Assembly (NCBI GenBank): GCA_041662745.1
Contig: JBAZRV010000003.1
Location: 56,034 to 120,033 of the forward strand
DNA length: 64,000 bases
DNA from: Patescibacteria group bacterium
GTDB taxonomy: Bacteria; Patescibacteriota; Patescibacteriia; 2-01-FULL-39-33
Reading direction: 5' to 3'
Positions 1 to 12,055 of this stretch are shown one piece after another. Within the stretch, counting starts at the first letter, position 1. Each line of letters begins with the position of its first letter. The notes beneath the pieces were generated by a model, which was not told the DNA's origin, did no database searches, and was given only the letters and a program-made list of their open reading frames with translations. The position numbers were made by a program, and so were the translations under genes.

Positions 1-552
1 TTGGATAATTTAACTTCCGGCCAATTTTTTTTTAAGGGGCGCGATGTCAGCAATTTGGATGAAGATGAGCTGGCGCGCATCAGGAATGAAGAAGTCGGCT
101 TTGTTTTTCAAGCCTTCCATCTATTGCCCAAGACTTCGGTCTATAACAATGTCAAGTTGCCTTTGCTTTACAGCACGGCCAAAGATGCCGACCAAAAGGT
201 CAGGACGGCGATTAAGGCCGTGGGGCTGGAACATCGCACCAATAATTTTTCCAATCAACTCTCCGGTGGCGAGAAACAGAGAGTCGCCATTGCCCGCGCC
301 TTGGTCAATAATCCGTCAATTATTTTTGCCGATGAGCCGACCGGCAATTTGGACAGCAAGTCAGGCAATGCCATCATGGAAATCTTGGAAGATTTAAACG
401 ACGCCGGCCATACGATTATCCTGGTTACTCACGAAACCGACACGGCTAAGCACGCCAAACGCATCATTAAGATTGTTGACGGTTTAATTGCTGAGGATTA
501 TAATGTCGCCGATCGTCGCAGCGCTAAGAACGGCGGGCAATTAATGAAATAA
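1..552 (+). CDS. ABC transporter ATP-binding protein, MacB/LolD-like (5' partial, starts before window)
   Basis: ABC signature [15 protein letters not shown], Walker [14 protein letters not shown]-loop VTHE; directly followed by FtsX-type permease. Confidence 0.88.
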
Positions 553-553
553 C

Positions 554-1789
554 ATGCGATTTACCGAAACCGTCAAACTGTCTTTTTCTGTTTTGCGCAC
601 CAACCGAACGCGCAGTTTTTTGACTTCTTTGGGAATTATTATCGGTATTGCCGCCGTTATTGTGATTATTTCCGCCGGCGCCGGAGCACAATCGCTTATC
701 GTTAACCAATTCAACGCTATCGGCACTAATTTAATAGGTGTTCTTCCCGGCGCCAGCGATGAGAACGGTCCGCCCGCTTCCGCTTTCGGCATTATTTTGC
801 AGACGCTCAAATACGAGGATGCTCAAGCAATTGCGCAAACAATACCGCACGCCAGCGCCGTCTCTTCCTATAATACCGGGGTGGCCACGGCATCTTATCA
901 GGGCGCTAAAGTGGATACCACTTATTACGGCGTTATGCCCGATTACGTGTTGGTTGAGGATACGGGAGTGGAGACAGGGAGATTTTTCGGGGATGACGAG
1001 GACCGGGGCAGTTCAAAAGTTGCCGTATTGGGCTGGCAGGTGGCGCAGGATTTGTTTGGCGGTCAGGATGCCGTGGGTCGCAAGATAAAAATCGGCAAGG
1101 AATTTTTTGAAGTGATCGGGGTAATGCGCAAGCGCGGCGTTTCCGGCTTCCAAAACAATGATAATATTATTCTAATACCGGCGCAGACCGCGCAAAAAAT
1201 AATGCTGGGCGTGCGTCATGTAAATTTCATCCGCGTTAAGGTTGATCAGCAGGAAAATCTGCCGCAAACCGTAGAAGACATCCGTTTTTTGTTGCGCGAT
1301 CGCCATAACTTACTGGAATCAAAGGTTGATGATTTTAATATCCGCAACACAGCCGATGCTATCAAAACCTTAACCTCCATTACCGACGTGTTGAAGTTTT
1401 TCCTGGCCGCCATCGCCAGCATCTCTTTGCTGGTCGGCGGCGTGGGCGTAATGAATATCATGTTAGCTTCGGTCAATGAGCGCGTTCGTGAAATCGGTTT
1501 GCGCAAGGCCGTGGGCGCCAAGCCCGGTGATATTATGGTGCAGTTTTTGGCTGAATCGGTTACCGTCACGTTGGCCGGAGGGGTTATCGGCATTATTATC
1601 GGTTCACTGATTTCGGCGTTGGTTGCCGTAGTCGCCAAATACCTGGGCTATGATTGGGATTTGGTGGTCTCGCCGCTGTCAATATTTATGGGTTTTGGCG
1701 TGGCTTTTGTCGTGGGTTTGATTTTTGGCATTTATCCGGCCACTCGCGCGGCCAAACTTAACTCCATTGAGGCGCTAAGGTGGGAATAG
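554..1789 (+). CDS. ABC transporter permease, MacB/FtsX family (411 aa)
   Basis: N-terminal TM, large periplasmic domain, C-terminal 3 TM; typical MacB/LolE-family end ...FGIYPATRAAKLNSIEALRWE; 2 nt after ATPase gene. Confidence 0.85.
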   Translation: MRFTETVKLSFSVLRTNRTRSFLTSLGIIIGIAAVIVIISAGAGAQSLIVNQFNAIGTNLIGVLPGASDENGPPASAFGIILQTLKYEDAQAIAQTIPHASAVSSYNTGVATASYQGAKVDTTYYGVMPDYVLVEDTGVETGRFFGDDEDRGSSKVAVLGWQVAQDLFGGQDAVGRKIKIGKEFFEVIGVMRKRGVSGFQNNDNIILIPAQTAQKIMLGVRHVNFIRVKVDQQENLPQTVEDIRFLLRDRHNLLESKVDDFNIRNTADAIKTLTSITDVLKFFLAAIASISLLVGGVGVMNIMLASVNERVREIGLRKAVGAKPGDIMVQFLAESVTVTLAGGVIGIIIGSLISALVAVVAKYLGYDWDLVVSPLSIFMGFGVAFVVGLIFGIYPATRAAKLNSIEALRWE

Positions 1790-1924
1790 GGGAGTTAATG
1801 TTCAGTTGCTAACGGATCGGCTTTTAGTTAATAGATCGCTTATTTTTAGGCGATTTTTTTAATTTAATTTTGTCTAATTTTACGTATTTATTGATAATTA
1901 AATTAGAAAAAGTGGATAAAACAC

Positions 1925-1953
1925 TTGACAAAATATTTAAGGTGTGATATAAT
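1925..1953 (+). promoter_or_regulatory. consensus sigma70 promoter: -35 TTGACA (1925-1930), 17-nt spacer, extended -10 TGaTATAAT (1945-1953)
   Basis: exact TTGACA-N17-TATAAT with TG at -15/-14 read directly from sequence; predicted TSS about 1960, upstream of a GC-rich structured region. Confidence 0.6.
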
Positions 1954-1959
1954 AGTTTA

Positions 1960-2910
1960 TTCAAGATGATGGTTGTGGATAACTGAACAAAATTCAATTA
2001 TTGACAATATCATCTTGTGGCAGTTTAAAAGCTGTTTTAAAAGAGTTCTTCGGAGCTCTTTGTCAGGGCGGCATACGGCTTATGTCGTGTGTCGCCCTTG
2101 ACAAAGGTTTCTGAAAAGCGATGGCTAATTCTTGTTGATGGCTGTTTTTTTGAGTGGACATAGTCCGAACAGTATCGGCGAGAACGGTTGCAACGCAGAA
2201 ATCCAGGGTTCTTGGGTGGTATCGGCTGAAGGTGCCAATCCGACTTCGGGTCGGTCGCAGCTAATGCTTAAATAAAAAAATCGACCGAAGGCCGATGCCC
2301 CCAAGAATCCGACCTAAGAATCAGAAATGCACTTTAACGGCTGACTTAATTACGGTCAGCCCTCCACTTAAGCTCAGGATAAATCATGATCTTAACGGGA
2401 GCTTGAACATTACTAAGCATTCATCTGCGGCAGTTTGTCGCCGCATCGATATGATTAAGGCGTATGCTTGTCCGCCTGATCAAGTCCAAAGCCAAAAGCC
2501 GAGGATTTTGGGAGGAGATTGAGCTGAAGAGGGGGCATGGTTTGAAATTATATATTTACCAATCGCCTTAATTCACTTCTTCAAGTCTTGATTATATCGA
2601 TGCGGTAGCAATGTTTGGCCGTCAAGCAGGCGGGCAAACGCGCGCCGCAAGCACTTTCTTTGAAAGAAGAATTTCCCCACCGTCGGGCCATTATCCCGCC
2701 GGATCGGTAGACTTCCTCCTTTCTCTGGGGAGGCGTCATGTAACCGCATGCGCCTCCCCCACACGCCTCAGACAGTATGGTTCGAGGGCGCATAATCAAA
2801 TCCTCACAAGGGAAGCTTGGTTTTACGCTTACGGCTTAAGTACTGTTTGAGGCGTGTGTTTTAAAACGGCATTTCATTCTACGAGCAATCTCGTGAAGGA
2901 GGGTCTGTCT
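1960..2910 (+). ncRNA. unclassified GC-rich highly structured RNA (long 5' leader of zinc-ribbon operon or independent ncRNA)
   Basis: no credible ORF with RBS over ~950 nt; GC visibly above flanks; many perfect hairpins (UUCG-loop hairpins at 2042-2059 and 2244-2258; 18-bp helix 2760-2777/2841-2858; long-range helix 2207-2225/2292-2310); mutually exclusive hairpins around 2715-2757. Confidence 0.35.
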
Positions 2911-3093
2911 ATGGTAATTCAATGTTGCGTTTGCTCCAAGGTGCGTTCGGCCGGTACTTGGGAAGTCCGGAGCATCCCTCCCGGGGAGCAGGTTTCCCAC
3001 GGCTATTGCCCAGAATGCGCCGAAAAAGTGTTTCAGGGCATAGAGCGGGAGTTGGCCGCGCGACAAAAGAAGGAGGAGACCGTCAATGGCTAA
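2911..3093 (+). CDS. small zinc-ribbon protein (60 aa), CxxC ... YCPxCAE
   Basis: ATG at 2911 preceded by AGGAGGG (2897-2903); Cys pairs CCVC and CPEC; stop overlaps start of paralog (ATGGCTAA). Confidence 0.6.
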   Translation: MVIQCCVCSKVRSAGTWEVRSIPPGEQVSHGYCPECAEKVFQGIERELAARQKKEETVNG

Positions 3094-3286
3094 AGGTAAG
3101 TGTCCGGCTTGCTTCAAAGTTGAAGTAGCGCCGGGACAATGGAAGAATGTCGCCTTGCCGGTCGGCGAGGAAACATTTCCCCAATATTGTCCAAAGTGTG
3201 CCGAACACAACGCTTATGTTCGGGGGAGCATCCTGGCATCCAAGAGGTTGGCGGATGCGGCCCTGGCCTCGGCGTCGGGCAAATAG
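3086..3286 (+). CDS. small zinc-ribbon protein paralog (66 aa), CPAC ... YCPKCAE
   Basis: RBS GAAGGAGGAG upstream; same Cys spacing and shared YCPxCAE motif with preceding ORF; translationally coupled. Confidence 0.6.
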   Translation: MAKGKCPACFKVEVAPGQWKNVALPVGEETFPQYCPKCAEHNAYVRGSILASKRLADAALASASGK

Positions 3287-3293
3287 TTCAATG

Positions 3294-3322
3294 AAGGAGG
3301 AGGCTGCGCGCTTCCTCCTTTA
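3294..3322 (+). terminator. hairpin aaggaggagg-ctgcgcg-cttcctcctt with short T tract
   Basis: 10-bp stem (1 mismatch) immediately after zinc-ribbon operon stop; weak U-run. Confidence 0.4.
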
Positions 3323-3497
3323 AAATTAATTTTGATTTATCCACAGCCAGACTCTTGACACTATATTGTTTTTATAAAAATTTAAGATATAATTTTATAT
3401 TAAGGGATGACACTAAGCGTCAGGCATTTTCAATCGCACTTTCCTAAAAACATTTTTAGGATCACACTTAAGTGTGATTTCGAAAATTCTCGTCGCG

Positions 3498-3526
3498 TCT
3501 TCTCCAAGTCCCGCCCATGTGGCGGG
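3498..3526 (+). terminator. intrinsic terminator-like hairpin gtcccgcc-catg-tggcgggac + TTTTAATT
   Basis: 8-bp perfect GC-rich stem followed by T-run; lies in a hairpin-rich 200-nt intergenic stretch (perfect hairpin atcacact-taa-gtgtgat at 3459-3477). Confidence 0.45.
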
Positions 3527-3555
3527 ACTTTTAATTGGCTGATTTTTTTGATTAG

Positions 3556-3564
3556 TGTTATAAT
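3556..3564 (+). promoter_or_regulatory. extended -10 promoter TGtTATAAT upstream of membrane-protein gene
   Basis: TGTTATAAT 22 nt upstream of ATG at 3586. Confidence 0.4.
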
Positions 3565-3585
3565 TTAATCAAGCAATCAAATCCT

Positions 3586-3963
3586 ATGTCGCTTAAGCAA
3601 TTAATCATCATCGTTGCCATTGCCACATTATTATGCTGGGCCAGCTGGTTGCTGGTCATTTTTGAGGTGGATCCGACGACTGCCGGCTTTTACGGCTTGC
3701 TGATTTTTTATGCCAGCATGTTTTTTTCTTTGCTCGGCTTATTTTTTTTGATCAGTTTCGGTTTCAGGAAGATTTTCAACAAGCTGGAAATGGAATACAG
3801 GCTGGTGGGCATGTCTTTCCGCCAATCGTTTTTCTTTGCCCTGGCAGTCGTCGGTTTCTTTTTTTTGCAAAGCAAGGATTTGCTGACTTGGTGGAATAGC
3901 ATTATGTTGCTGGCGGCTCTGGTGATTTTGGAATTTTTCTTTTTGAGTTATCGGAAAAAGTAA
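3586..3963 (+). CDS. hypothetical small membrane protein (125 aa, 4 predicted TM)
   Basis: long ORF, hydrophobic segments. Confidence 0.55.
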   Translation: MSLKQLIIIVAIATLLCWASWLLVIFEVDPTTAGFYGLLIFYASMFFSLLGLFFLISFGFRKIFNKLEMEYRLVGMSFRQSFFFALAVVGFFFLQSKDLLTWWNSIMLLAALVILEFFFLSYRKK

Positions 3964-4019
3964 GGCAACAGAAGGCGTCCCTTGTCGGGACGTTTTTTTT
4001 ATTTGGCATTATAATGTTT

Positions 4020-4262
4020 CTTGTTATTTTTACTCTCTCATGTCATTCCTGGCTTGACCAGGAATCCAGGTTTTCCTGTCATCCTGAGGCGCACCTGCCT
4101 GCCGGTAGGCAGGGACGGGAATCCAGGTTATTTTTATCCGTCATTGCGAGCGAAGCCGTAATCGGCGAAGAGCGGCAATCTTTCAGTGAACATAAATGTG
4201 GCCTTCAATATTGCTTCGTTCCGCTACGCTACACTCGCAATGACGAAAAGCAATTTGACTAA
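4020..4262. repeat. cluster of 3 tandem MITE-like hairpin units, GTCATTCC...GGAATCCAGGTT family (third unit flanked by inverted repeats gtcattgcgagcg/cactcgcaatgac)
   Basis: units at about 4040-4072, 4078-4130, 4140-4250; each self-complementary; second copy of family at 55866-55945 shares cctgcct-N-ggcagg core and GGGAaTCCAGGTTATTTTT(a/g)TCATT. Confidence 0.6.
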
Positions 4263-4352
4263 GTTAAGATAAAATAGCTATAATATATTCATATTAAGCT
4301 ATTTTTCTCCCCCTTACGAAGGGGGAGATTAAGAGGGAGTTATAGAGAAACT

Positions 4353-5411
4353 ATGAAAGAAAAACTTAGCCAATTAAAGGCGCAATTCACCGAAGAATCG
4401 GCAAAGGTCAAATCAGCCAAAGAGCTGGAGGAGCTGGAGAGTAGATTTTTGAGTCGTAAAAGCGGACTGCTGACCGGTATCATGAAGGAGATCAAGGATG
4501 TGGCCAAGGAAGAGGTGGCGGAAATCGGCGCTTTGGCTAACGAAACCAAGGAATATATCGTTGAGGGACTGGCAGCGCTTAAGGGCAATTTGGCCGGCGC
4601 CGGCTCTTTTAATTTTGATTTTACCGTGCCCGGCCATAAGCCGCCGGTCGGACATTTGCATTTATCAACCATTGCCATCCGCGAAATTGAAAGCATTTTA
4701 GAGCCGTTGGGGTTCAAGCGTGTTAGGCATCCTGATATTGAATGGGATTATTATGCTTTTGAAACCCTGAATATGCCCGGAGATCATCCGGCGCGCGATG
4801 ATTGGGAAACTTTTTTTATTGATGAAGCGCCGATTAAGATGAATTTGCCGGCTAATTCCAAAAAACTGGTCAAAGAGGGGAGACGGCTGCTCACTCCGCA
4901 CACTTCCAGCATTCAGGTGCGTGAAATGGAAAAAGGCGAACTGCCGATTCGGATGATGAATATTTCCAAATGCTATCGCCGGCAGATTGATGTTTCCCAT
5001 GTGCCGATGTTCCATCAGTTTGAAGGACTGGTGATTGACAAGGGGATTAACATCACCCATTTGAAAGGCACGATTGATTATTTTGTTAAGAAATTTTTCG
5101 GCGAAGATCGGGTTATTCGTTTGCGTCCGCATCATTTCCAGTTTACCGAACCGAGTTTTGAGGTGGATATTTCCTGCGGTTTGTGCAATGGCGCGGGTTG
5201 CAAGATGTGCAAAGAGGGCTGGCTGGAACTGGCTGGCGCCGGCATGGTGCACCCCAATGTCCTAAAAGCCGGAGGAATTGATCCGGAGAAGTATTCCGGG
5301 TTTGCTTTCGGTTGGGGTGTGGAGCGATGTTTCTCAATGAAATCGGGACTTAATATTGATGATTTGCGGTTGATGTATAAGAATGATTTGAGGTTTAATG
5401 AACAGTTTTAA
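4353..5411 (+). CDS. pheS: phenylalanine--tRNA ligase alpha subunit
   Basis: class II motifs: FPFTEPS-like region FQFTEPSFEVD, GAGMVHPNVL, FAFGWGVERC; RBS AGAGGGAG. Confidence 0.93.
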   Translation: MKEKLSQLKAQFTEESAKVKSAKELEELESRFLSRKSGLLTGIMKEIKDVAKEEVAEIGALANETKEYIVEGLAALKGNLAGAGSFNFDFTVPGHKPPVGHLHLSTIAIREIESILEPLGFKRVRHPDIEWDYYAFETLNMPGDHPARDDWETFFIDEAPIKMNLPANSKKLVKEGRRLLTPHTSSIQVREMEKGELPIRMMNISKCYRRQIDVSHVPMFHQFEGLVIDKGINITHLKGTIDYFVKKFFGEDRVIRLRPHHFQFTEPSFEVDISCGLCNGAGCKMCKEGWLELAGAGMVHPNVLKAGGIDPEKYSGFAFGWGVERCFSMKSGLNIDDLRLMYKNDLRFNEQF

Positions 5412-5435
5412 GATTAATATCATAATTAGTATTAT

Positions 5436-5984
5436 ATGGGTAACCAAATTAAAAACAACAAATTAAAATATCTATTTTGGCTATCAAGTATAGCCATAAT
5501 ATTTTGGATAATTTTTGGTCTCGGCTTGCAAAGGGATTATAAGAACTGCGGTAGTGCAATCTCTAAAATTTCCTTTTTTGGAATAGTTTTGTATGAGTAC
5601 GATAATCCGTGTCCTGTTACAAATACAAAAACACCAGAATTAAGTGACTTAGATATATTTTCGATAGAAATTAATAGGCATCCAAATTTGAGAGGATTTC
5701 CATTTTCTGAAGTTGTAGATTTTTCTCGTTTTGATAAAAGTAATTTGAAAGCTATTTGGATGATTATATCATTTGTTTCATTATTGAATTTGATTTTTTA
5801 TTTTGTTTTTTTTCAAATACTATTTAAAATTTTAGATAAGGTTAGTAACAATTATAGAAAAATAGTTTTTATAATTTTGATGATTACGATTTCTCTTATA
5901 TTTTTAATTATATCATCTATAAATGCCAAATATTCTTTAAGTTATTTAACTTTCTATTCAATTTTAACAATTTTTAAATTGTAG
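5436..5984 (+). CDS. hypothetical membrane protein (182 aa), strongly AT-rich gene
   Basis: long ORF in markedly AT-rich segment inserted between pheS and pheT; N- and C-terminal TM segments. Confidence 0.5.
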   Translation: MGNQIKNNKLKYLFWLSSIAIIFWIIFGLGLQRDYKNCGSAISKISFFGIVLYEYDNPCPVTNTKTPELSDLDIFSIEINRHPNLRGFPFSEVVDFSRFDKSNLKAIWMIISFVSLLNLIFYFVFFQILFKILDKVSNNYRKIVFIILMITISLIFLIISSINAKYSLSYLTFYSILTIFKL

Positions 5985-6028
5985 GCTTTTTATAAATCTA
6001 AATATTTCAATAACCGACTGAAGTCGCT

Positions 6029-6544
6029 ATGATTAAACCCCTCAAGCAATCAACATACGAAACTTGTTTGACCTGTTGTTTATTAATGCTTGCAGGAAAA
6101 AGCAGAAAAGATGAAATTGAAATTTGGAAGCATGGCTGGAAATTCAATTATCTAATCGGCCAGATTAATTTTGTTAGCAGCAAATACAATAAAAAGGTAA
6201 CCGCTTATATTGAGAATAAGTATTATTTTAATGAACTGAAAAACCAAGGCGGTAAAAATGTCAGATTAATTAACAGCAAAATTAACTTAAAGCTGATTAA
6301 TAAGCTTTTAGAGGAGGGGAGTGTCGGGGTTTATTGTGATGCTTACTATCCTTTTGCCGCCCATTCCGGTTATGTCCATGCTCCGCACTTTATAGTATGT
6401 TTAAGCAGGGATGGGGATTTTATGGAATTAGCCGATCCCTGGGATGGCCAGATCAAAAAGTGGCCGGTCAAAGAAATCAACAAGGCGATAATCAGTTTAC
6501 GTAATCATTTAAAGTATAGCCCAGTTTTGATAACAATTAATTAA
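6029..6544 (+). CDS. putative standalone C39-like cysteine peptidase (171 aa)
   Basis: N-terminal Q-x6-C-L-T-C-C-L-L-M-L resembles C39 Q...DCGxACLxMI catalytic Cys region; C-terminal HFIVCLSRDGDFMELADPWDG matches H-F-V-V ... I-A-D-P-x-x-G His/Asp motif of C39 peptidase domains. Confidence 0.45.
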   Translation: MIKPLKQSTYETCLTCCLLMLAGKSRKDEIEIWKHGWKFNYLIGQINFVSSKYNKKVTAYIENKYYFNELKNQGGKNVRLINSKINLKLINKLLEEGSVGVYCDAYYPFAAHSGYVHAPHFIVCLSRDGDFMELADPWDGQIKKWPVKEINKAIISLRNHLKYSPVLITIN

Positions 6545-6547
6545 TAT

Positions 6548-8920
6548 ATGAATTTAAATATCTCTTACAACTGGCTAAAGTCGTATGTCAAAACCAGTTT
6601 GACACCGCAAGAATTTGCTAAACGGATCTCGCTTTCCGGACCATCGGTTGACCGCATTAATGCCATCAAACCGAATTTCAGCAAGGTAGTCGTCGGGCAA
6701 ATCAAAAAAATAGAACAGCATCCCAATGCCGACAAGCTTCATGTTTGCAAGGTTAATATTGGCAAAGAAGAATTGCAAATAGTTTGTGGCGCGCCAAATA
6801 TTAAAGAAGGTCAAAAAGTGCCGGTAGTTTTGGTTGGCGGTCAAGTCGGTGAGTTTGAAATCAAAGAAGCCAAATTAAGAGGCGTAGAAAGCTTTGGTAT
6901 GATGTGCTCTCAAAAAGAATTAGGGTTAGGCGAGGATCACACCGGAATTTATATTTTGCCGGCAGATGCCAAAGTTGGCGAGCCGTTAGAGAAAATCATG
7001 CCCATGGATGATGCGATTTTGGATATTGAAATCACTTCCAACCGCCCGGATGCCATGAGCGTTATCGGCATCGCCAGAGAAGCGTCAGCAATTTTGGACG
7101 CTAAGTTTTTATATCAAGCCCCTAAGCCTAATTTGGCTGTCAAAGGCGGTAAAAAGGATTTAAAGATTAAGGTGGCTGAAGAAAAATTTTGCCCTCGGTA
7201 TTCCGCTATTGTTATGGGGGAAGTCAAAGTTGAGGCCTCGCCCTTATGGATGCAACAGCGGCTGCTCGCTTCCGGCTTGCGTCCGATCAATAATCTGGTG
7301 GATATCACTAATTATATTTTATTGGAATACGGCCAGCCGATGCATGTGTTTGATTATGATAAATTATCAGGCGCGGAGATTAATGTCCGCAAAGCCAAAA
7401 AAGGCGAGAAGATTTTGGCGCTGGACGGCAAGGAATATGAATTGTTAACTGATCAATTGGTGATTGCGGATGCTAAGGTCCCGGTCGCTGTCGCCGGTGT
7501 CATGGGCGGAGAATTGTCGGCCGCCACAACAGAAACCAAAACCATTGTGTTTGAATGCGCTAATTTTAATCCGGTTTCAGTCAGGAAGACTTCCAGAGCC
7601 CTGAATTTGCGTTCTGAGAGCTCGGCGCTTTATGAGAAGGGAATCAGTCCGGAAAATGTTATCGCCTCAATGTTGCGCGCCATAGAGCTGGCGCAGGAAT
7701 TGTGCGGCGCCAAAATCGCCGGTAGATTAATTGATGAGAAGTCATATAAAATTAAAGATAAGGAAATTGTTTTGGATTTGGATAGTGTTAATTCCGCTTT
7801 GGGTGTTAAAATCAAACCAGCAGAAATCAAAAAGAATTTAGAAGCTTTAGGTTTTAAAGTTTCTTCCACCAAGTCCAAGCGCGATGAATTTATGGTGGTT
7901 GTGCCGTGGTGGCGGGAAAATGATATTGACGGCCAGCATGATTTAATTGAGGAAATCGCTCGCATGCACGGTTATTATAATCTGCCAACTGAGCTTATGT
8001 CTGGCGCTTTGCCAAAAGCCGCCAGCAGCATTAATTTTGGTTTAGAAGATAAAATCAAGGATGTTTTGGTTGGTTTTGGTTTAACCGAAGTTTATACTTA
8101 CTCTTTCATCTCTGAAAAACAAATAACCGCCTGCGGTTTAAAGCCGGAGGATCATATTAAAATCGCCAATCCCTTAAGTGTTGATTTTGAGTACATGCGG
8201 ATTTCACTCTTGCCGGGAGTTTTGCAAATTATTGCTGAAAACGAAGGTTTTTATCCGGCTGGAAAATTGTTTGATTTCAGCCAGGTTTATTTGCCGTTAG
8301 GCGCAAACGATTTAGCCGATGAAAAATTTAAATTATTAATCGCTTGCTATGGCGCTGAAATCAATAAAGTCGCCGGTGATGTCAGGGGATTATTGGATGG
8401 TTTAATGCAACGGCTTTATATTTCCGGTTTGGTTTTTAAAAATACTGCTGATGGCTCAGAGATTTATGTTGGTGATAATAAATTGGGCGAGATCAAAGTC
8501 ATTAATAATAAAATTTTATCCGCTTTCGGCATTAAGAAAGCAGTAACAATCGTAGAATTGGATTTTGAAGCTGTTAGTAAATCAGCCAAGTCCGCGCCGA
8601 CTTACCAGCCGATTCCTAAATTTCCGGCGATTGAACTAGACTTGTCAATGGAAATTGATAATGTCGTGACTTTTGCCGAGGTGGCTAATATCGCGACTGA
8701 CGCCGGCCTGCCTGCCGGTCAGGCAGGCGCGCCATTGGTAGAGAGAGTTGATTTTTTATCAGTATACAGAGGTAATGATTTGCCGGAAGGTAAAAAAGCT
8801 TTAGCGATTAGAATCGTTTATCGTGACTTGAACAAGACGCTGGAATTAGCTGAAGCGCAAAAAGCGCATGATAAAGTTGTAGCGGAATTAAAAAAGAGTT
8901 ATAATATAAGTGTAAGATAA
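6548..8920 (+). CDS. pheT: phenylalanine--tRNA ligase beta subunit
   Basis: 790 aa; N-terminal tRNA-binding (EMAP-like) domain, B3/4, B5, core and anticodon-binding domains; follows pheS. Confidence 0.93.
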   Translation: MNLNISYNWLKSYVKTSLTPQEFAKRISLSGPSVDRINAIKPNFSKVVVGQIKKIEQHPNADKLHVCKVNIGKEELQIVCGAPNIKEGQKVPVVLVGGQVGEFEIKEAKLRGVESFGMMCSQKELGLGEDHTGIYILPADAKVGEPLEKIMPMDDAILDIEITSNRPDAMSVIGIAREASAILDAKFLYQAPKPNLAVKGGKKDLKIKVAEEKFCPRYSAIVMGEVKVEASPLWMQQRLLASGLRPINNLVDITNYILLEYGQPMHVFDYDKLSGAEINVRKAKKGEKILALDGKEYELLTDQLVIADAKVPVAVAGVMGGELSAATTETKTIVFECANFNPVSVRKTSRALNLRSESSALYEKGISPENVIASMLRAIELAQELCGAKIAGRLIDEKSYKIKDKEIVLDLDSVNSALGVKIKPAEIKKNLEALGFKVSSTKSKRDEFMVVVPWWRENDIDGQHDLIEEIARMHGYYNLPTELMSGALPKAASSINFGLEDKIKDVLVGFGLTEVYTYSFISEKQITACGLKPEDHIKIANPLSVDFEYMRISLLPGVLQIIAENEGFYPAGKLFDFSQVYLPLGANDLADEKFKLLIACYGAEINKVAGDVRGLLDGLMQRLYISGLVFKNTADGSEIYVGDNKLGEIKVINNKILSAFGIKKAVTIVELDFEAVSKSAKSAPTYQPIPKFPAIELDLSMEIDNVVTFAEVANIATDAGLPAGQAGAPLVERVDFLSVYRGNDLPEGKKALAIRIVYRDLNKTLELAEAQKAHDKVVAELKKSYNISVR

Positions 8921-8935
8921 AATAATTATATTCCC

Positions 8936-9244
8936 ATGCTTGTCACATCAAAAGACCTATTCTGGGTCGTGTTATCGTTTGTTATTCTCTTTGGCGGTAT
9001 TTGCACCAGCTTCGCTATTTTTTACTTCGCCATGATTCTACGCGACGGCTGGTACATCACCAAGGCCATCAGGCGCAAGGTGGAAGCGGTAGAAAAAGTC
9101 ATGACCGCTTTCAAGTCTAAAGTGGAAAACACCGCCAGCTATGTGCCGCCGTTAATTGACGGCGTGTCCAAATTGGTTGAAGCCATAGCCGAAAAGAAAA
9201 GATCTTCGGCCGCCAAAACCGGCAAAAAATCAAAAAGAAAGTAA
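8936..9244 (+). CDS. hypothetical small membrane protein (102 aa) with K-rich tail
   Basis: ORF with one N-terminal TM. Confidence 0.45.
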   Translation: MLVTSKDLFWVVLSFVILFGGICTSFAIFYFAMILRDGWYITKAIRRKVEAVEKVMTAFKSKVENTASYVPPLIDGVSKLVEAIAEKKRSSAAKTGKKSKRK

Positions 9245-9255
9245 AACATTACAAT

Positions 9256-9486
9256 ATGCTGTCAACAATCGCTTTGATGCCGATTTTCGGCTATCCGGCC
9301 ATCATGTATGGCGGAATTATTACTTTCATTCTTTTCCTCCTTGTTGCTTTCATGGGTTATCGAATAAATAAAGGAAAATGCCGTTTACCTAATCCAATTA
9401 AATGGCATCAGACTATAGCGCTTCTGGCGTTAATTCTGGCCGTAATCCACGGCATCCTGGGGTTATCTATCATGGTAGGATTCTAA
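9256..9486 (+). CDS. hypothetical small membrane protein (76 aa, 2 TM)
   Basis: ORF, two hydrophobic helices; followed by terminator. Confidence 0.45.
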   Translation: MLSTIALMPIFGYPAIMYGGIITFILFLLVAFMGYRINKGKCRLPNPIKWHQTIALLALILAVIHGILGLSIMVGF

Positions 9487-9495
9487 AGATAAAAA

Positions 9496-9522
9496 TAGCC
9501 GGCCTTTGCCGGTTATTTTTTT
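9496..9522 (+). terminator. intrinsic terminator tagccggc-cttt-gccggtta + T7
   Basis: hairpin plus TTATTTTTTT directly after 9256..9486 ORF. Confidence 0.6.
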
Positions 9523-9613
9523 GTTATTGACTTTTTATTGATTTTTTAGTATCATAAGCAATCGTACCTTTAAATCGTTTATTCATTAAGACTATTATAA
9601 AGGAGAATTAATA

Positions 9614-10156
9614 ATGAAGATTATCAGATGGTATTCCGGCAATACCAGATTTGTCTTAGTGATTGGTTTTTTGGCTTTTAAGTTTGCCAAAATCAATCTG
9701 TTTATGGCTTTAAAATGCGAATTCAGGCAATTATTTACGAACAGTCATAATGTGAGACGCTTAGTGAAGAAATATGGTTATGTATGCCCGGTATCGCCAC
9801 TTTATTGGCTGCTCCGCGGAATCACAGCCAATTGGCTGGAATGGCGTTATTATCGGCGCACGCGCTTACCGATTCTTGCTCCAACCTATTTGTCGCTTGG
9901 CTTAGTAAATATCCAGGCGGCCGGCGTTTATCCGCAAGTAACCGAAAAATATTTTAGAAGCCAAATCAGCGCCATCATCGGCCATGATGAGAATAATGAT
10001 GAAGATATCCATGCCGATCCACACACTCTTCGTCAAATGGAAAACTACATCGTCTTTAACGGCAGACTGAAGATCATTGATTATGGATCACCAAAATCCT
10101 GGACGTTTTTGGAGAAATGGGGAAAAAAGATATTTGATGAATTTATCGCTCTGTAA
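9614..10156 (+). CDS. hypothetical protein (180 aa)
   Basis: ORF with GGAG RBS; followed by hairpin agccacg...cgtggct + TTTTAT (about 10166-10195). Confidence 0.5.
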   Translation: MKIIRWYSGNTRFVLVIGFLAFKFAKINLFMALKCEFRQLFTNSHNVRRLVKKYGYVCPVSPLYWLLRGITANWLEWRYYRRTRLPILAPTYLSLGLVNIQAAGVYPQVTEKYFRSQISAIIGHDENNDEDIHADPHTLRQMENYIVFNGRLKIIDYGSPKSWTFLEKWGKKIFDEFIAL

Positions 10157-10233
10157 TCCAGCCACTTAAGCCACGCTTAGTCGTGGCTTTTATATTTGCT
10201 ATTTTTTGCTGATTTTCGTATAATATAAGCATT

Positions 10234-10560
10234 ATGAAGATGGAAAACGAGCCGGTAAATTCGGTTTTAAACGAGCCGGGATTTCAGGAATTCATCAGGA
10301 ATCGCAAGATTCAAGAAGCGGACTTTCCGCTTTTGGAGGAACTGGCGGAAATTCCCAAAGATTTGCTATTTGTTGAATTGCATAATTTTTTTAATTCTAA
10401 TCGAGAAAGAAGCGCCGAGGAATTAGAGCGCCAGCTTTTGACTATGGAAGACGGTGGCAAGAAGCGTTATTTTGAGTTACTGTTGCGTTTTACCCGGGCT
10501 TATGACTGGACAGCTTGTTATAATTTAGAAAGAGTTTTAGAAAGAAGATATGAAAATTAA
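10234..10560 (+). CDS. hypothetical protein (108 aa)
   Basis: ORF overlapping lysS start by 11 nt. Confidence 0.45.
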   Translation: MKMENEPVNSVLNEPGFQEFIRNRKIQEADFPLLEELAEIPKDLLFVELHNFFNSNRERSAEELERQLLTMEDGGKKRYFELLLRFTRAYDWTACYNLERVLERRYEN

Positions 10561-12055
10561 AAATATGCCCCAACAATCAGAAGCTAATCCTTTGGATGAG
10601 AAAGTAATGCGTTTAAAACGTCTTGCTGACATTAAGTCGTCCGGTGTCAATCCGTATCCGGAAAAATTTGATAAATTACAAAGCCTGGCCGAGGCCAAAG
10701 CCGGCAAAGAGGGGACTAAGGTCAAGACAGCCGGCCGAATTATGACTATCAGAAGCATGGGCAAGATTGCTTTTTGCCATTTGTCCGATTGGAGCGGCAA
10801 ATGCCAGGCCGTATTGAACATTACCGAAATCGGAGAGGAAAAATTGCAATGGTTCAAGGACTACGTGGATAGGGGTGATTTTATCGGCGTTTCCGGCGAA
10901 ATTTTTACTACTAAGGCCGGAGAGATTTCCATTTTAGTCAAAGAATATGAATTCTTGGGTAAGGCGCTTTTGCCGTTGCCGGAAAAGTTCCATGGCCTGA
11001 AGGATACGGACACGATTTATCGCCAGAGATACTTGGATTTGATCGTCAATAATGAGGCCAAAAAACGTTTCCAATTCCGTTCGGATTTTATCCGCGCTAT
11101 TCGCGAGTTTTATTGGCAGGAAGGGTTTATGGAAGTGGAAACTCCAACTTTGTTGCATCAAGCGACCGGAGCGACGGCTACTCCCTATGATACGCACAAT
11201 AATGCCCTGGATGTGGATTTGGTTTTGCGGATTTCCCACGAATTACCGCTGAAGGAGTTGATTGTCGGCGGCATGGAAAAGATTTTTGAGTTGGGCAAAG
11301 CTTTCCGCAACGAGGGAGTTGACCCCTCGCATCTGCCCGAGCATACGCTTTTGGAACATTATGCGGCTTATTGGAATTTTGAAGATAATATCAAATATAC
11401 CGAAAAGATGTTTGATCATTTGTTTGATAAGTTAAAATTGCAGAAAGTTTTGGAGGTAGAGGATCGCGAAGGCCAAAAACAAAAAGTTGATTTTACCACG
11501 CCTTGGCAGCGGGTTGATTTTATTGAGATGATCAAAGTTGATACCGGCATTGATATTACTGAATTTGACGAGGCCGCAGAATTATTAAAAGAAATCAAAA
11601 AGAAGAAAATAGAATTTGAAGATATGGATGGGATGAGTTTGACGGGATTAGTGGATAATTTATATAAGAAAGTCAGTCGCTCAAAAATCGTCGGCCCGGT
11701 GATTCTTTATCATTACCCCAAATATATGCAGCCGTTGGCGCGCGTTAATGATAAAGACAAGAATATTGTTGATCAGTTCCAACTCATAGTCAACGGCTGG
11801 GAAATGCTCAAGGCCTATTCCGAATTGGTTGATCCCACAGATCAGAAAGAACGTTTTGAAGCGCAAAGAAAGGCCAAAATCAAAGGCGAAGGCGAAGTGA
11901 TGGAGGGTGATGATGAGTTTATTACCGCTCTGGAGCATGGCGCGCCGCCGATCTCCGGCTGGGGCATGGGCATTGACCGCACCGTGGCCATTTTGACCGG
12001 CCAAAGCAATTTGCGGGATGTAGTGCTGTTTCCGTTATTAAGACCGAAGGAATAA
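10550..12055 (+). CDS. lysS: lysine--tRNA ligase (class II)
   Basis: OB-fold N-domain, class II motifs, C-terminal GWGMGIDRTVAILTG. Confidence 0.93.
   Translation: MKIKNMPQQSEANPLDEKVMRLKRLADIKSSGVNPYPEKFDKLQSLAEAKAGKEGTKVKTAGRIMTIRSMGKIAFCHLSDWSGKCQAVLNITEIGEEKLQWFKDYVDRGDFIGVSGEIFTTKAGEISILVKEYEFLGKALLPLPEKFHGLKDTDTIYRQRYLDLIVNNEAKKRFQFRSDFIRAIREFYWQEGFMEVETPTLLHQATGATATPYDTHNNALDVDLVLRISHELPLKELIVGGMEKIFELGKAFRNEGVDPSHLPEHTLLEHYAAYWNFEDNIKYTEKMFDHLFDKLKLQKVLEVEDREGQKQKVDFTTPWQRVDFIEMIKVDTGIDITEFDEAAELLKEIKKKKIEFEDMDGMSLTGLVDNLYKKVSRSKIVGPVILYHYPKYMQPLARVNDKDKNIVDQFQLIVNGWEMLKAYSELVDPTDQKERFEAQRKAKIKGEGEVMEGDDEFITALEHGAPPISGWGMGIDRTVAILTGQSNLRDVVLFPLLRPKE

What the first reader, a model, noticed from the sequence alone, without database searches (positions are those of the whole stretch)
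5412..6547. AT-rich two-gene island inserted between pheS and pheT encoding a membrane protein and a standalone C39-like cysteine peptidase
pheS and pheT are normally adjacent and overlapping. Here 1.1 kb of markedly lower-GC DNA carries a 182-aa multi-TM protein and a 171-aa protein. The 171-aa protein has an N-terminal Q-x6-CLTCCLLML motif and a C-terminal HFIVCLSRDGDFMELADPWDG motif that match the Cys and His/Asp(P) signatures of bacteriocin-processing C39 peptidase domains. Composition, position inside an essential operon and the peptidase/membrane-partner pairing suggest a horizontally acquired module (peptide processing/export or immunity-like). It has been co-opted into the pheST transcript, so expression would track a housekeeping operon.
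Basis: partly seen in the sequence, partly recalled or inferred. Interest (0 to 1): 0.55.

Follow-up and report, generated by a model that had tools for sequence, protein, structure and literature searches.

The report
Gene-cassette hotspot between pheS and pheT
The AT-rich DNA between two essential tRNA-synthetase genes is real, laterally acquired cargo sitting in a spot that holds different genes in each related genome. One cargo gene is an intact but uncharacterised small cysteine enzyme; there is no evidence that it is part of a bacteriocin-export system.

Summary
pheS (4353-5411) and pheT (6548-8920) are separated by 1.1 kb of low-GC DNA with two ORFs.

ORF-B (6029-6544, 171 aa) is a standalone papain-fold, C39-like thiol enzyme.
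- Gln7, Cys13 and His120 are invariant in 112 relatives, and Asp136 is nearly so.
- The family is small (about 240 clusters), always single-domain, seen mostly in Patescibacteria MAGs, and never next to an ABC exporter.

ORF-A (5436-5984) is a multi-TM ORFan found only in this organism. It is not a conserved partner of ORF-B.

The pheS-pheT junction is a hypervariable hotspot. The two closest relatives (flanks about 90-95% identical) carry other AT-rich cargo there: an Mrr nuclease, a transglutaminase-like protein, membrane ORFans and TIR-flanked GIY-YIG elements. Another relative has an empty 22-nt site.

Cassettes are preceded by decayed copies of the first 37 nt of pheT. Elsewhere ORF-B usually follows secA, often with a duplicated secA tail behind it.

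Lateral acquisition and the C39-like fold are supported. The peptide-processing/export module reading is not.

The parts
4255..4284 (+). Best sigma-70-like promoter match (TTGACT-18-TATAAT, 11/12), upstream of pheS. Putative start of the transcription unit.
   Evidence: a consensus match only. A strong terminator-like hairpin at 3970-3998 closes the preceding unit.
4353..5411 (+). pheS (PheRS alpha subunit, 352 aa), left border of the hotspot.
   Evidence: Pfam tRNA-synt_2d 3.8e-78 and Phe_tRNA-synt_N. 93% and 91% identical in L050 and L051.
5436..5984 (+). ORF-A: 182-aa AT-rich (24% GC) multi-TM ORFan, species-specific cargo.
   Evidence: Only itself in 5.8 billion clusters. No Pfam, NCBIfam, PHROG, PADLOC or phage hit. 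0/5000 shuffles give such an ORF, and three hydrophobic segments are present. The single-sequence AF2 model has helices 2-30, 101-135, 139-165 and 168-181 at pLDDT 62.
5461..5489 (+). H': decayed copy of the pheT 5' head, lying inside ORF-A codons 9-18.
   Evidence: Local alignment score 28, shuffle p = 0.004, 0/53 real-sequence null windows. Also flagged as repeat D2.
5992..6026 (+). H'': decayed copy of the pheT 5' head, ending 2 nt before the ORF-B start codon.
   Evidence: Score 34, 0/3000 shuffles, 0/68 null windows. Copies sit in the same position upstream of ORF-B in L009 and L026.
6029..6544 (+). ORF-B: 171-aa standalone C39-like (clan CA) cysteine hydrolase/transferase. Codons: Gln7 6047-6049, Cys13 6065-6067, His120 6386-6388, Asp136 6434-6436.
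6548..6584 (+). H: the functional pheT head (first 37 nt of the CDS). This is the sequence that is repeated in front of cassettes in this clade.
6548..8920 (+). pheT (PheRS beta subunit, 790 aa), right border of the hotspot. It starts 3 nt after the ORF-B stop.
   Evidence: Pfam B3_4, tRNA_synthFbeta, tRNA_bind, B5 and FDX-ACB. Its identity to relatives is mosaic.
8936..9520 (+). Two conserved small ORFs (102 aa and 76 aa) and a strong terminator-like hairpin (9491-9520). Putative end of the unit.
   Evidence: The same two ORFs follow pheT in L050-L052.

Best explanation
The 1.1-kb AT-rich segment is the current content of a hypervariable cassette hotspot at the pheS-pheT junction of one Patescibacteria (CPR) clade.

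Shown:
- Related genomes with identical flanking synteny have this junction empty, or filled with different, non-homologous AT-rich genes.
- In all five GIY-YIG copies seen in relatives, insertion is at one fixed point about 37 nt into pheT.
- Each such event leaves the old pheT head upstream and an intact head in front of pheT. Copies of that head also precede ORF-B, and more weakly ORF-A. The result is an array of the form head-cassette-head-cassette-pheT.

Inferred:
- The cassettes ride on pheST transcription.
- TIR-flanked GIY-YIG nuclease elements found at exactly this point in relatives, and/or homology-anchored recombination in pheT, drive the turnover.

ORF-B is one such cargo gene. 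It is a cytoplasmic, single-domain papain-fold thiol enzyme. Cys13 would be the nucleophile, His120 and Asp136 the base pair, and Gln7 the oxyanion hole; it would act through an acyl-enzyme intermediate on a peptide, isopeptide or thioester substrate that is still unknown.

ORF-B is an accessory gene that moves among these genomes. It characteristically lodges against the end of an essential gene, most often the 3' end of secA, where the secA tail is duplicated behind it.

ORF-A is an unrelated, species-specific membrane ORFan. Its first codons overlie a decayed pheT head.
For: Hotspot:
- The synteny macB-orf125-pheS-[X]-pheT-orf102-orf76 is conserved, and X differs in each genome.
  - Window: ORF-A + ORF-B.
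  - L050 (flanks 93-95% identical): orf100, a 170-aa Transglut_core protein, a 4-TM orf141 and a GIY-YIG gene.
  - L051 (about 90%): Mrr restriction endonuclease, GIY-YIG and orf133.
  - L052: empty, 22 nt.
  - L009: ORF-B only.
  - L026: GIY-YIG + ORF-B. L045: ORF-B + two GIY-YIG cassettes + orf145.
  - Sources.
- All cargo has GC 0.24-0.39 (0.43 for the ORF-B 3' fragment in L045), against 0.42-0.50 in the flanks.

pheT-head copies:
- Three near-identical copies in L045.
- Two, plus one partial, in L026.
- One extra copy each in L050, L051 and L009.
- Two decayed copies in the window (p = 0.004 and p < 0.0003).
- Every GIY-YIG element starts 6-17 nt (mostly about 8) after a head copy and has TIRs of about 46 nt.
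- pheT identity to relatives is mosaic compared with the flanks.

ORF-B enzyme: with the CtaG triad Cys11/His128/Asp144 taken from PMC12865890.

ORF-B as a mobile accessory gene:
- Only 242 clusters at 50% identity among 1.84 billion representatives.
- Absent from the two closest relatives.
- Found directly after secA in about 15 lineages, between grpE and dnaK in 3, after lysS in 2, and between pheS and pheT in 3.
- The secA SEC-C tail, including its stop codon, is duplicated right behind ORF-B. This reaches 0/1000 against the null in 5 loci, with p about 0.01 in 2 more.
- ORF-B and SecA pairwise identities are uncorrelated (r = 0.13). For example, L013 versus L029 is 79% for ORF-B and 57% for SecA.
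- ORF-B is poorer in GC than its host at all codon positions in most loci.
Against: - No endonuclease or recombinase lies in the window's own island, so the driver of insertion is inferred from relatives.
- The H' copy in ORF-A is weak (29 nt, p = 0.004) in low-complexity AT-rich DNA.
- No target duplication is detectable at the dnaK, lysS or other ORF-B contexts, nor in 4-5 of the 12 secA loci tested.
- The lack of correlation with SecA could partly reflect rate variation. Only one host marker per locus was available.
- Co-transcription rests on consensus scans only.
- The substrate and physiological role of ORF-B are unknown, and nothing distinguishes hydrolase from transacylase.
- ORF-B is not in PADLOC or in phage collections, so a conflict or defence role is only a guess from its neighbours.
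Confidence: 0.6

Rival explanations
1. ORF-A and ORF-B form a functional module for processing, export or immunity of a double-glycine (bacteriocin-type) peptide: a C39 leader peptidase working with a membrane partner.
For: C39-like fold and catalytic residues. A multi-TM protein lies directly upstream. At the same hotspot L050 carries an analogous pair, a transglutaminase-like thiol enzyme overlapping a 4-TM ORFan. A MacB-type ABC system lies 2.5 kb upstream.
Against: ORF-A has no homologue anywhere. ORF-B occurs without any membrane partner in all other loci. ORF-B is never fused or adjacent to an ABC/PCAT transporter. No double-glycine leader ORF was found in 64 kb. The MacB system is conserved in relatives that lack ORF-B and lies in a separate unit behind a terminator-like site. 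PF03412 is below threshold.
Confidence: 0.08
2. ORF-B is a vertically inherited housekeeping factor tied to its neighbours, for example a cytoplasmic peptidase acting on Sec preproteins or in protein quality control. Its position next to secA, dnaK, lysS or pheST would then reflect function rather than mobility.
For: It lies directly downstream of secA, with a gap of about 10 nt, in about 15 lineages. In several of these the order is hpf-secA-ORF-B-secDF. All its neighbours are translation, secretion or chaperone genes. The catalytic residues are under strong purifying selection.
Against: The distribution is sporadic: 242 clusters at 50% identity, and 9 hits in a pattern-limited scan of 185,579 species genomes. 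It is absent from the two closest relatives of this genome. Duplicated target ends flank it. Its divergence is decoupled from SecA. It has a persistent GC deficit.
Confidence: 0.12
3. ORF-B is not a peptidase but a papain-like ligase or transacylase of the CtaG/BtrH/AsbE type, moving an acyl group from a thioester donor to an amine.
For: The only significant sequence match among solved structures is CtaG (E = 6e-7), with His120/Asp136 aligned to His128/Asp144. CtaG is a Cys-His-Asp ping-pong ligase.
Confidence: 0.15
4. ORF-A is not a functional gene. It would be an open frame maintained by chance, or by recent arrival in foreign AT-rich DNA, and the 'island' would be essentially ORF-B plus junk.
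For: No homologue, extreme composition, low-confidence fold, and an N-terminus built on a decayed pheT head.
Against: A 182-codon ORF in 24% GC DNA never arose in 5000 shuffles. It has a coherent pattern of TM helices. Similar AT-rich membrane ORFans occupy the hotspot in relatives.
Confidence: 0.2

Closest known systems
Peptidase C39 domains of PCAT/ComA-type ABC exporters (PF03412; PDB 5xe8, 8vp3, 6mpz)
   Different: Standalone and cytoplasmic, with no transporter fusion or adjacency. Pfam score below the gathering cutoff (14.7 versus 22 bits). No double-glycine substrates found. About 30-40 residues larger.
DUF3335 (PF11814, 'Peptidase_C39 like family') and C39_2/YvpB-like standalone enzymes (PDB 3erv)
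   Different: The window protein is below the PF11814 cutoff (21.8 versus 25 bits). Only the C-terminal two thirds match. According to PMC10318531, DUF3335 proteins are often fused to GNAT-type domains; this family never is.
CtaG/BtrH_N papain-like ligases (PDB 9quz and related entries; PMC12865890)
   Same: Closest solved sequence relative (E = 6e-7). The His and Asp of the catalytic Cys-His-Asp triad align residue for residue, and the Cys sits near the N-terminus in both (Cys13 vs Cys11).
   Different: Half the size, with no C-terminal helical domain, no carrier proteins and no biosynthetic cluster.
Free-standing homing-endonuclease genes and chromosomal integration hotspots between conserved core genes
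   Same: Insertion at a fixed site between or at the ends of conserved genes. GIY-YIG nuclease genes are present at that site in relatives. Flanking sequence is mosaic. Cargo varies between close relatives and includes a restriction enzyme.
   Different: Each insertion duplicates about 37 nt of the 5' coding end of an essential gene, giving a head-cassette array. The GIY-YIG genes are flanked by TIRs of about 46 nt. The hotspot lies inside an essential two-gene operon. To my knowledge (not searched exhaustively) this layout has not been described.

Membership tests
Peptidase C39 (PF03412, bacteriocin-processing) | Papain-like fold superposable on C39 domains | tested here: met
Peptidase C39 (PF03412, bacteriocin-processing) | Conserved Gln (oxyanion), Cys, His and Asp | tested here: met
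   Q7, C13 and H120 are invariant and D136 is present in over 90% of 112 sequences. His and Asp align to a proven triad in CtaG. Spatial proximity in the model was not measured.
Peptidase C39 (PF03412, bacteriocin-processing) | Reaches Pfam's gathering score | tested here: not met
   14.7 bits versus a cutoff of 22. 20/31 relatives match at E <= 0.01, best 1.8e-6.
Peptidase C39 (PF03412, bacteriocin-processing) | N-terminal domain of, or encoded beside, an ABC exporter (PCAT) | tested here: not met
   Single-domain proteins, nearly all of 165-195 aa, in every family member listed. No ABC gene is adjacent at any locus examined.
Peptidase C39 (PF03412, bacteriocin-processing) | Double-glycine leader peptide substrates encoded nearby | tested here: inconclusive
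   A regex scan of all small ORFs in the 64 kb found no credible candidate. The rest of the genome is not available.
DUF3335 (PF11814) | Reaches Pfam's gathering score | tested here: inconclusive
   The window protein scores 21.8 bits against a cutoff of 25. 27/31 relatives match at E <= 0.01, best 3.6e-9. This is a borderline outlying subfamily.
CtaG/BtrH_N papain-like ligases | Cys-His-Asp triad | tested here: met
   Profile alignment places H120 and D136 on CtaG H128 and D144. The triad definition comes from PMC12865890.
CtaG/BtrH_N papain-like ligases | Bipartite architecture with a C-terminal helical domain; carrier-protein partners | tested here: not met
   171 aa versus 315 aa, and only CtaG residues 78-177 align. 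No PCP/ACP genes are in any neighbourhood.
Homing-endonuclease-type mobile cassette (for the island) | Encodes its own site-specific endonuclease | tested here: not met
   No GIY-YIG or other nuclease lies in window 5412-6547. GIY-YIG genes occupy the same site in L026, L045, L050 and L051.
Homing-endonuclease-type mobile cassette (for the island) | Recurrent insertion at one defined target position, with empty sites in relatives | tested here: met
   Five GIY-YIG copies start 6-17 nt (mostly about 8) after pheT nt 31-38. L052 has the empty site.
Known anti-phage defence systems (PADLOC) | Match to a defence-system protein model | tested here: not met
   No PADLOC hit for ORF-A or ORF-B at E <= 0.1.

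The most novel reading that the evidence does not exclude
ORF-B and the other cargo are moved by a previously undescribed cassette-insertion process in Patescibacteria. This process targets the extreme ends of essential genes (the pheT 5' head and the secA 3' tail) and duplicates 37-60 nt of the target, so that the essential gene is regenerated. Over time it would build integron-like arrays inside housekeeping operons. TIR-flanked GIY-YIG elements may be the engine.
Probability: 0.3. Interest if true: 0.72.

Novelty: new variant of a known kind. Interest (0 to 1): 0.55.

Why it matters
Patescibacteria have tiny, streamlined genomes, and how they gain new genes is an open question. This locus shows one concrete route. 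A fixed insertion point inside an essential operon accumulates and exchanges small AT-rich genes, which would be expressed if they ride on the pheST transcript. These include a restriction enzyme, thiol enzymes and membrane ORFans.

The duplicated gene-end scars give a searchable signature for finding such hotspots elsewhere. The scars are the pheT head here and the secA tail at other ORF-B loci.

The work also defines a compact, catalytically intact C39-like enzyme family of 165-185 aa that has no transporter and no known substrate. That makes it a tractable target for activity-based profiling.

Tried and rejected
- ORF-A homologues: none found in 5.8 billion clusters, Pfam, NCBIfam, PHROGs, PADLOC or phage genomes. 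A single-sequence AF2 model was uninformative beyond TM helices.
- IS-like ends around the island: only chance AT-rich repeats were found.
- Riboswitch or T-box upstream of pheS: no Rfam hit in 1-12000.
- Phage or viral origin of ORF-B: no match in INPHARED or IMG/VR. The only signal was a weak N-terminal PHROG hit.
- 'N-terminally truncated, Cys-less' family members of 147-154 aa: the one checked (L023) is a gene-calling artefact, because the upstream in-frame sequence encodes MKIIKQSTYETC.
- Programmed frameshift fusing ORF-B to the SEC-C remnant: rejected, because the frame offset differs between L001 and L013 (read directly from the sequences).
- Target duplications at the dnaK, lysS and other ORF-B sites: none detected.
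- Homology between ORF-B and the 170-aa transglutaminase-like protein at the same hotspot in L050: hhalign probability 0.1%.
- My early conclusion that ORF-B is an old resident, based on L009 synteny, was revised once closer relatives lacking it were found.
- afdb50 fold search: the library was unavailable.

Full report
**1.

The window carries pheS (4353-5411), a 182-aa ORF (ORF-A, 5436-5984), a 171-aa ORF (ORF-B, 6029-6544) and pheT (6548-8920). All are co-directional, with gaps of 24, 44 and 3 nt.

GC drops to 0.18-0.29 over ORF-A and 0.31-0.39 over ORF-B. Per gene the values are 0.240 and 0.357. The window's larger ORFs average 0.451 +/- 0.041. The identical DNA occurs in three independent assemblies.

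A consensus scan puts the best promoter-like site at 4255-4284. Strong terminator-like hairpins lie at 3970-3998 and 9491-9520, with none inside the island. Read-through from pheS is therefore plausible but not shown. No Rfam element is present.

**2. ORF-B is a catalytically intact, standalone C39-like thiol enzyme**

*Family matches.* The window protein alone gives only sub-threshold Pfam matches: DUF3335/PF11814 at 21.8 bits against a cutoff of 25, and Peptidase_C39 at 14.7 against 22. Of 31 relatives, 27 match PF11814 and 20 match PF03412 at E <= 0.01.

*Family size and shape.*
- A word-indexed search found 89 clusters, mostly of 165-175 aa. The few that carry a name are Patescibacteria-group MAG proteins, though some MAG records are labelled Gammaproteobacteria.
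- An exhaustive profile search of 1.84 billion representatives found 242 at E <= 0.001 and 184 at E <= 1e-10. Apart from short fragments and a few slightly longer calls, they are single-domain proteins of about 165-195 aa.
- Shorter 'Cys-less' calls are probably start-codon artefacts; the one checked (L023) is.

*Catalytic residues.* In an alignment of 112 diverse members the only invariant residues are Gln7, Cys13 and His120. Asp136, Pro137 and His117 are conserved in over 90%.

*Structure.*
- An AlphaFold2 model built with 31 sequences has mean pLDDT 94.6.
- Next come papain-like toxins, PeiR, CtaG and a primitive phytochelatin synthase. Foldseek agrees.

*Closest solved sequence relative.* A profile search of PDB sequences gives one significant family, CtaG (E = 6e-7). 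The H128A and D144N variant chains show that ORF-B His120 and Asp136 align with CtaG His128 and Asp144. CtaG is a papain-like ligase with a Cys11/His128/Asp144 triad (PMC12865890).

*Inference.* ORF-B has no signal peptide or TM segment, because the nucleophile sits at residue 13. It should therefore be a cytoplasmic Cys-His-Asp acyl-enzyme catalyst. The data cannot tell whether it hydrolyses or transfers.

**3. ORF-A is an ORFan and not a partner**

- ORF-A matches only itself among 5.8 billion clusters. It hits no family library and no phage record.
- It is nevertheless very unlikely to be a chance ORF: 0 of 5000 shuffles reproduced it.
- It has three to four TM helices.
- In all other ORF-B loci there is no ORF-A and no membrane partner. 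L009 has pheS-ORF-B-pheT directly.
- The 'two-gene module' reading is therefore not supported.

**4. The junction is a hypervariable hotspot**

PheS was used to find the nearest relatives. Their flanking genes (ABC ATPase, MacB permease, orf125, PheS, orf102, orf76) compare with the window as follows:

| Locus | Flank identity | Content between pheS and pheT |
|---|---|---|
| L050 | 87-95% | 2038 nt: orf100, a 170-aa Transglut_core protein, a 4-TM orf141, a GIY-YIG gene |
| L051 | 83-92% | 1972 nt: a 315-aa Mrr restriction endonuclease, a GIY-YIG gene, orf133 |
| L052 | 53-85% | empty, 22 nt |

Neither L050 nor L051 has ORF-A or ORF-B.

- L009 (56-84%) has ORF-B only.
- L026 has GIY-YIG + ORF-B.
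- L045, which is 96% identical over the ORF-B 3' end and 100% identical over part of pheT, has two GIY-YIG cassettes and a 145-aa secreted or membrane ORFan between ORF-B and pheT.
- Nearly all cargo is AT-rich: 0.24-0.39, with 0.43 for the partial ORF-B fragment in L045, against 0.42-0.50 for the flanks.
- pheT identity is mosaic relative to the flanks. The N-terminal third is 57% in L051 but 88% in L009. L045 has a divergent patch of about 350 nt between stretches of 98-100% identity.

This is direct comparative evidence for lateral gain and turnover.

**5. Cassettes are bounded by copies of the pheT head**

The first 37 nt of pheT (ATGAATTTAAATATCTCTTACAACTGGCTAAAGTCGT, 6548-6584) recur upstream of cassettes.

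- L045 has three near-identical copies.
- L026 has two copies plus a partial one.
- L050, L051 and L009 each have one extra copy.
- In the window, a decayed copy ends 2 nt before the ORF-B ATG (5992-6026; 0/3000 shuffles).
- A weaker copy lies inside ORF-A codons 9-18 (5461-5489; p = 0.004).
- Every GIY-YIG gene (PF01541) is flanked by bipartite TIRs of about 46 nt (TTGTCATTCCGACCGA...AGTGGAGGAATC). Each begins 6-17 nt (mostly about 8) after a head copy.

Insertions therefore recur at one point in the pheT 5' coding end and regenerate the head. The mechanism is inferred. Candidates are nuclease-triggered repair, homology-anchored recombination with an illegitimate second junction, or a true long target-site duplication.

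**6. ORF-B behaves the same way elsewhere**

- Across about 30 distinct loci ORF-B is always co-directional with a large housekeeping gene and close behind it. The tally is secA (about 15 lineages), grpE.../dnaK (3), lysS (2), pheS/pheT (3) and others.
- In 7 of 12 secA loci the last 30-60 nt of secA are duplicated at or after the ORF-B stop. This stretch is the SEC-C motif plus the stop codon.
- The duplicated copy keeps lineage-specific features, such as FKQCHG in L013 and matching TAA, TAG or TGA stops. Five loci reach 0/1000 against the null, and two more have p about 0.01.
- No such scars are detectable at the dnaK, lysS or other sites.
- ORF-B and SecA pairwise identities are uncorrelated (r = 0.13). 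ORF-B is often more conserved than SecA, for example 79% against 57%.
- ORF-B is GC-poorer than its host at all three codon positions in most loci, while its GC3 still tracks the host.

Together with its sporadic occurrence, this marks ORF-B as a mobile accessory gene rather than a core partner of SecA or PheRS.

**7. Comparison with known systems and verdict**

- ORF-B works like a C39/papain-clan thiol enzyme. It fails two defining features of bacteriocin-processing C39 domains: transporter linkage and the Pfam threshold. No double-glycine peptides were found.
- It also fails the bipartite architecture of CtaG/BtrH ligases.
- It is best described as an outlying, uncharacterised standalone subfamily near DUF3335.
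- Integration hotspots, free-standing homing nucleases and defence-type cargo are all known. A head-duplicating cassette array inside an essential operon, and the parallel secA-tail scars, were not found in the literature searched. That search was limited.
- I rate the finding a new variant of known kinds, of moderate interest.

Noticed in passing
window 4130-4254: MITE-like pair of inverted repeats (CCGTCATTGCGAGCGAAGC / GCT.CACTCGCAATGACG, 27 nt, 78% complementary), about 100 nt upstream of pheS. It resembles the TIRs of the GIY-YIG elements seen in relatives. The spurious ORF at 4014-4262 translates across it.
   Followed up: partly
window 2854-3093 and 3086-3286: Two adjacent, overlapping small ORFs (79 and 66 aa) that look paralogous. 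Both have C-x2-C ... C-P-x-C-A-E zinc-ribbon-like motifs, lie in a locally GC-rich stretch (0.53-0.55) and have no Pfam hit. A 66-aa ORF sits at the equivalent place in L051.
   Followed up: no
window 2435-2483 vs L009 2358-2406: A 49-nt stretch is 94% identical between genomes whose flanking genes are only about 71-76% identical at the DNA level. It could be a small RNA or a conserved peptide. There is no tRNA or Rfam hit here.
   Followed up: no
window 6648-6997 vs L045 1805-2155: A patch of about 350 nt inside pheT (the tRNA-binding domain) is only 42-80% identical between two otherwise 98-100% identical strains. This is a recombination mosaic in an essential gene, next to the hotspot.
   Followed up: partly
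L050 6550-7484: At the same hotspot a 170-aa transglutaminase-like (also papain-clan) protein overlaps by 4 nt a 141-aa four-TM ORFan. This is a non-homologous 'thiol enzyme + membrane protein' pair that mirrors ORF-B and ORF-A in the window.
   Followed up: partly
L051 6183-7130: An Mrr-type restriction endonuclease (Mrr_N + Mrr_cat) is carried as cargo between pheS and pheT, so this hotspot can hold defence genes.
   Followed up: no
L026 604-654: The pheT-head copy upstream of ORF-B is still an intact 11-codon mini-ORF (MNLNISYNWLN*) that ends 6 nt before the ORF-B ATG. This may be a termination-reinitiation coupling device.
   Followed up: no
L023 4905-4935: A GC-rich hairpin (GTCCCCGCGAAAGCGGGGAC) lies between lysS and ORF-B. 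It belongs to the same class of repeat as those that give 'SPRKRGP'-type spurious translations.
   Followed up: no
L051 7558-7636: The right TIR of the GIY-YIG element (GCCTCGGTCGGGATGACAA) is tandemly triplicated at 30-nt spacing.
   Followed up: no
window 8936-9486: Two small hydrophobic ORFs (102 and 76 aa) always follow pheT in this clade and lie before the terminator-like site. They are conserved (83-95%) in L050 and L051 and have no family assignment.
   Followed up: no
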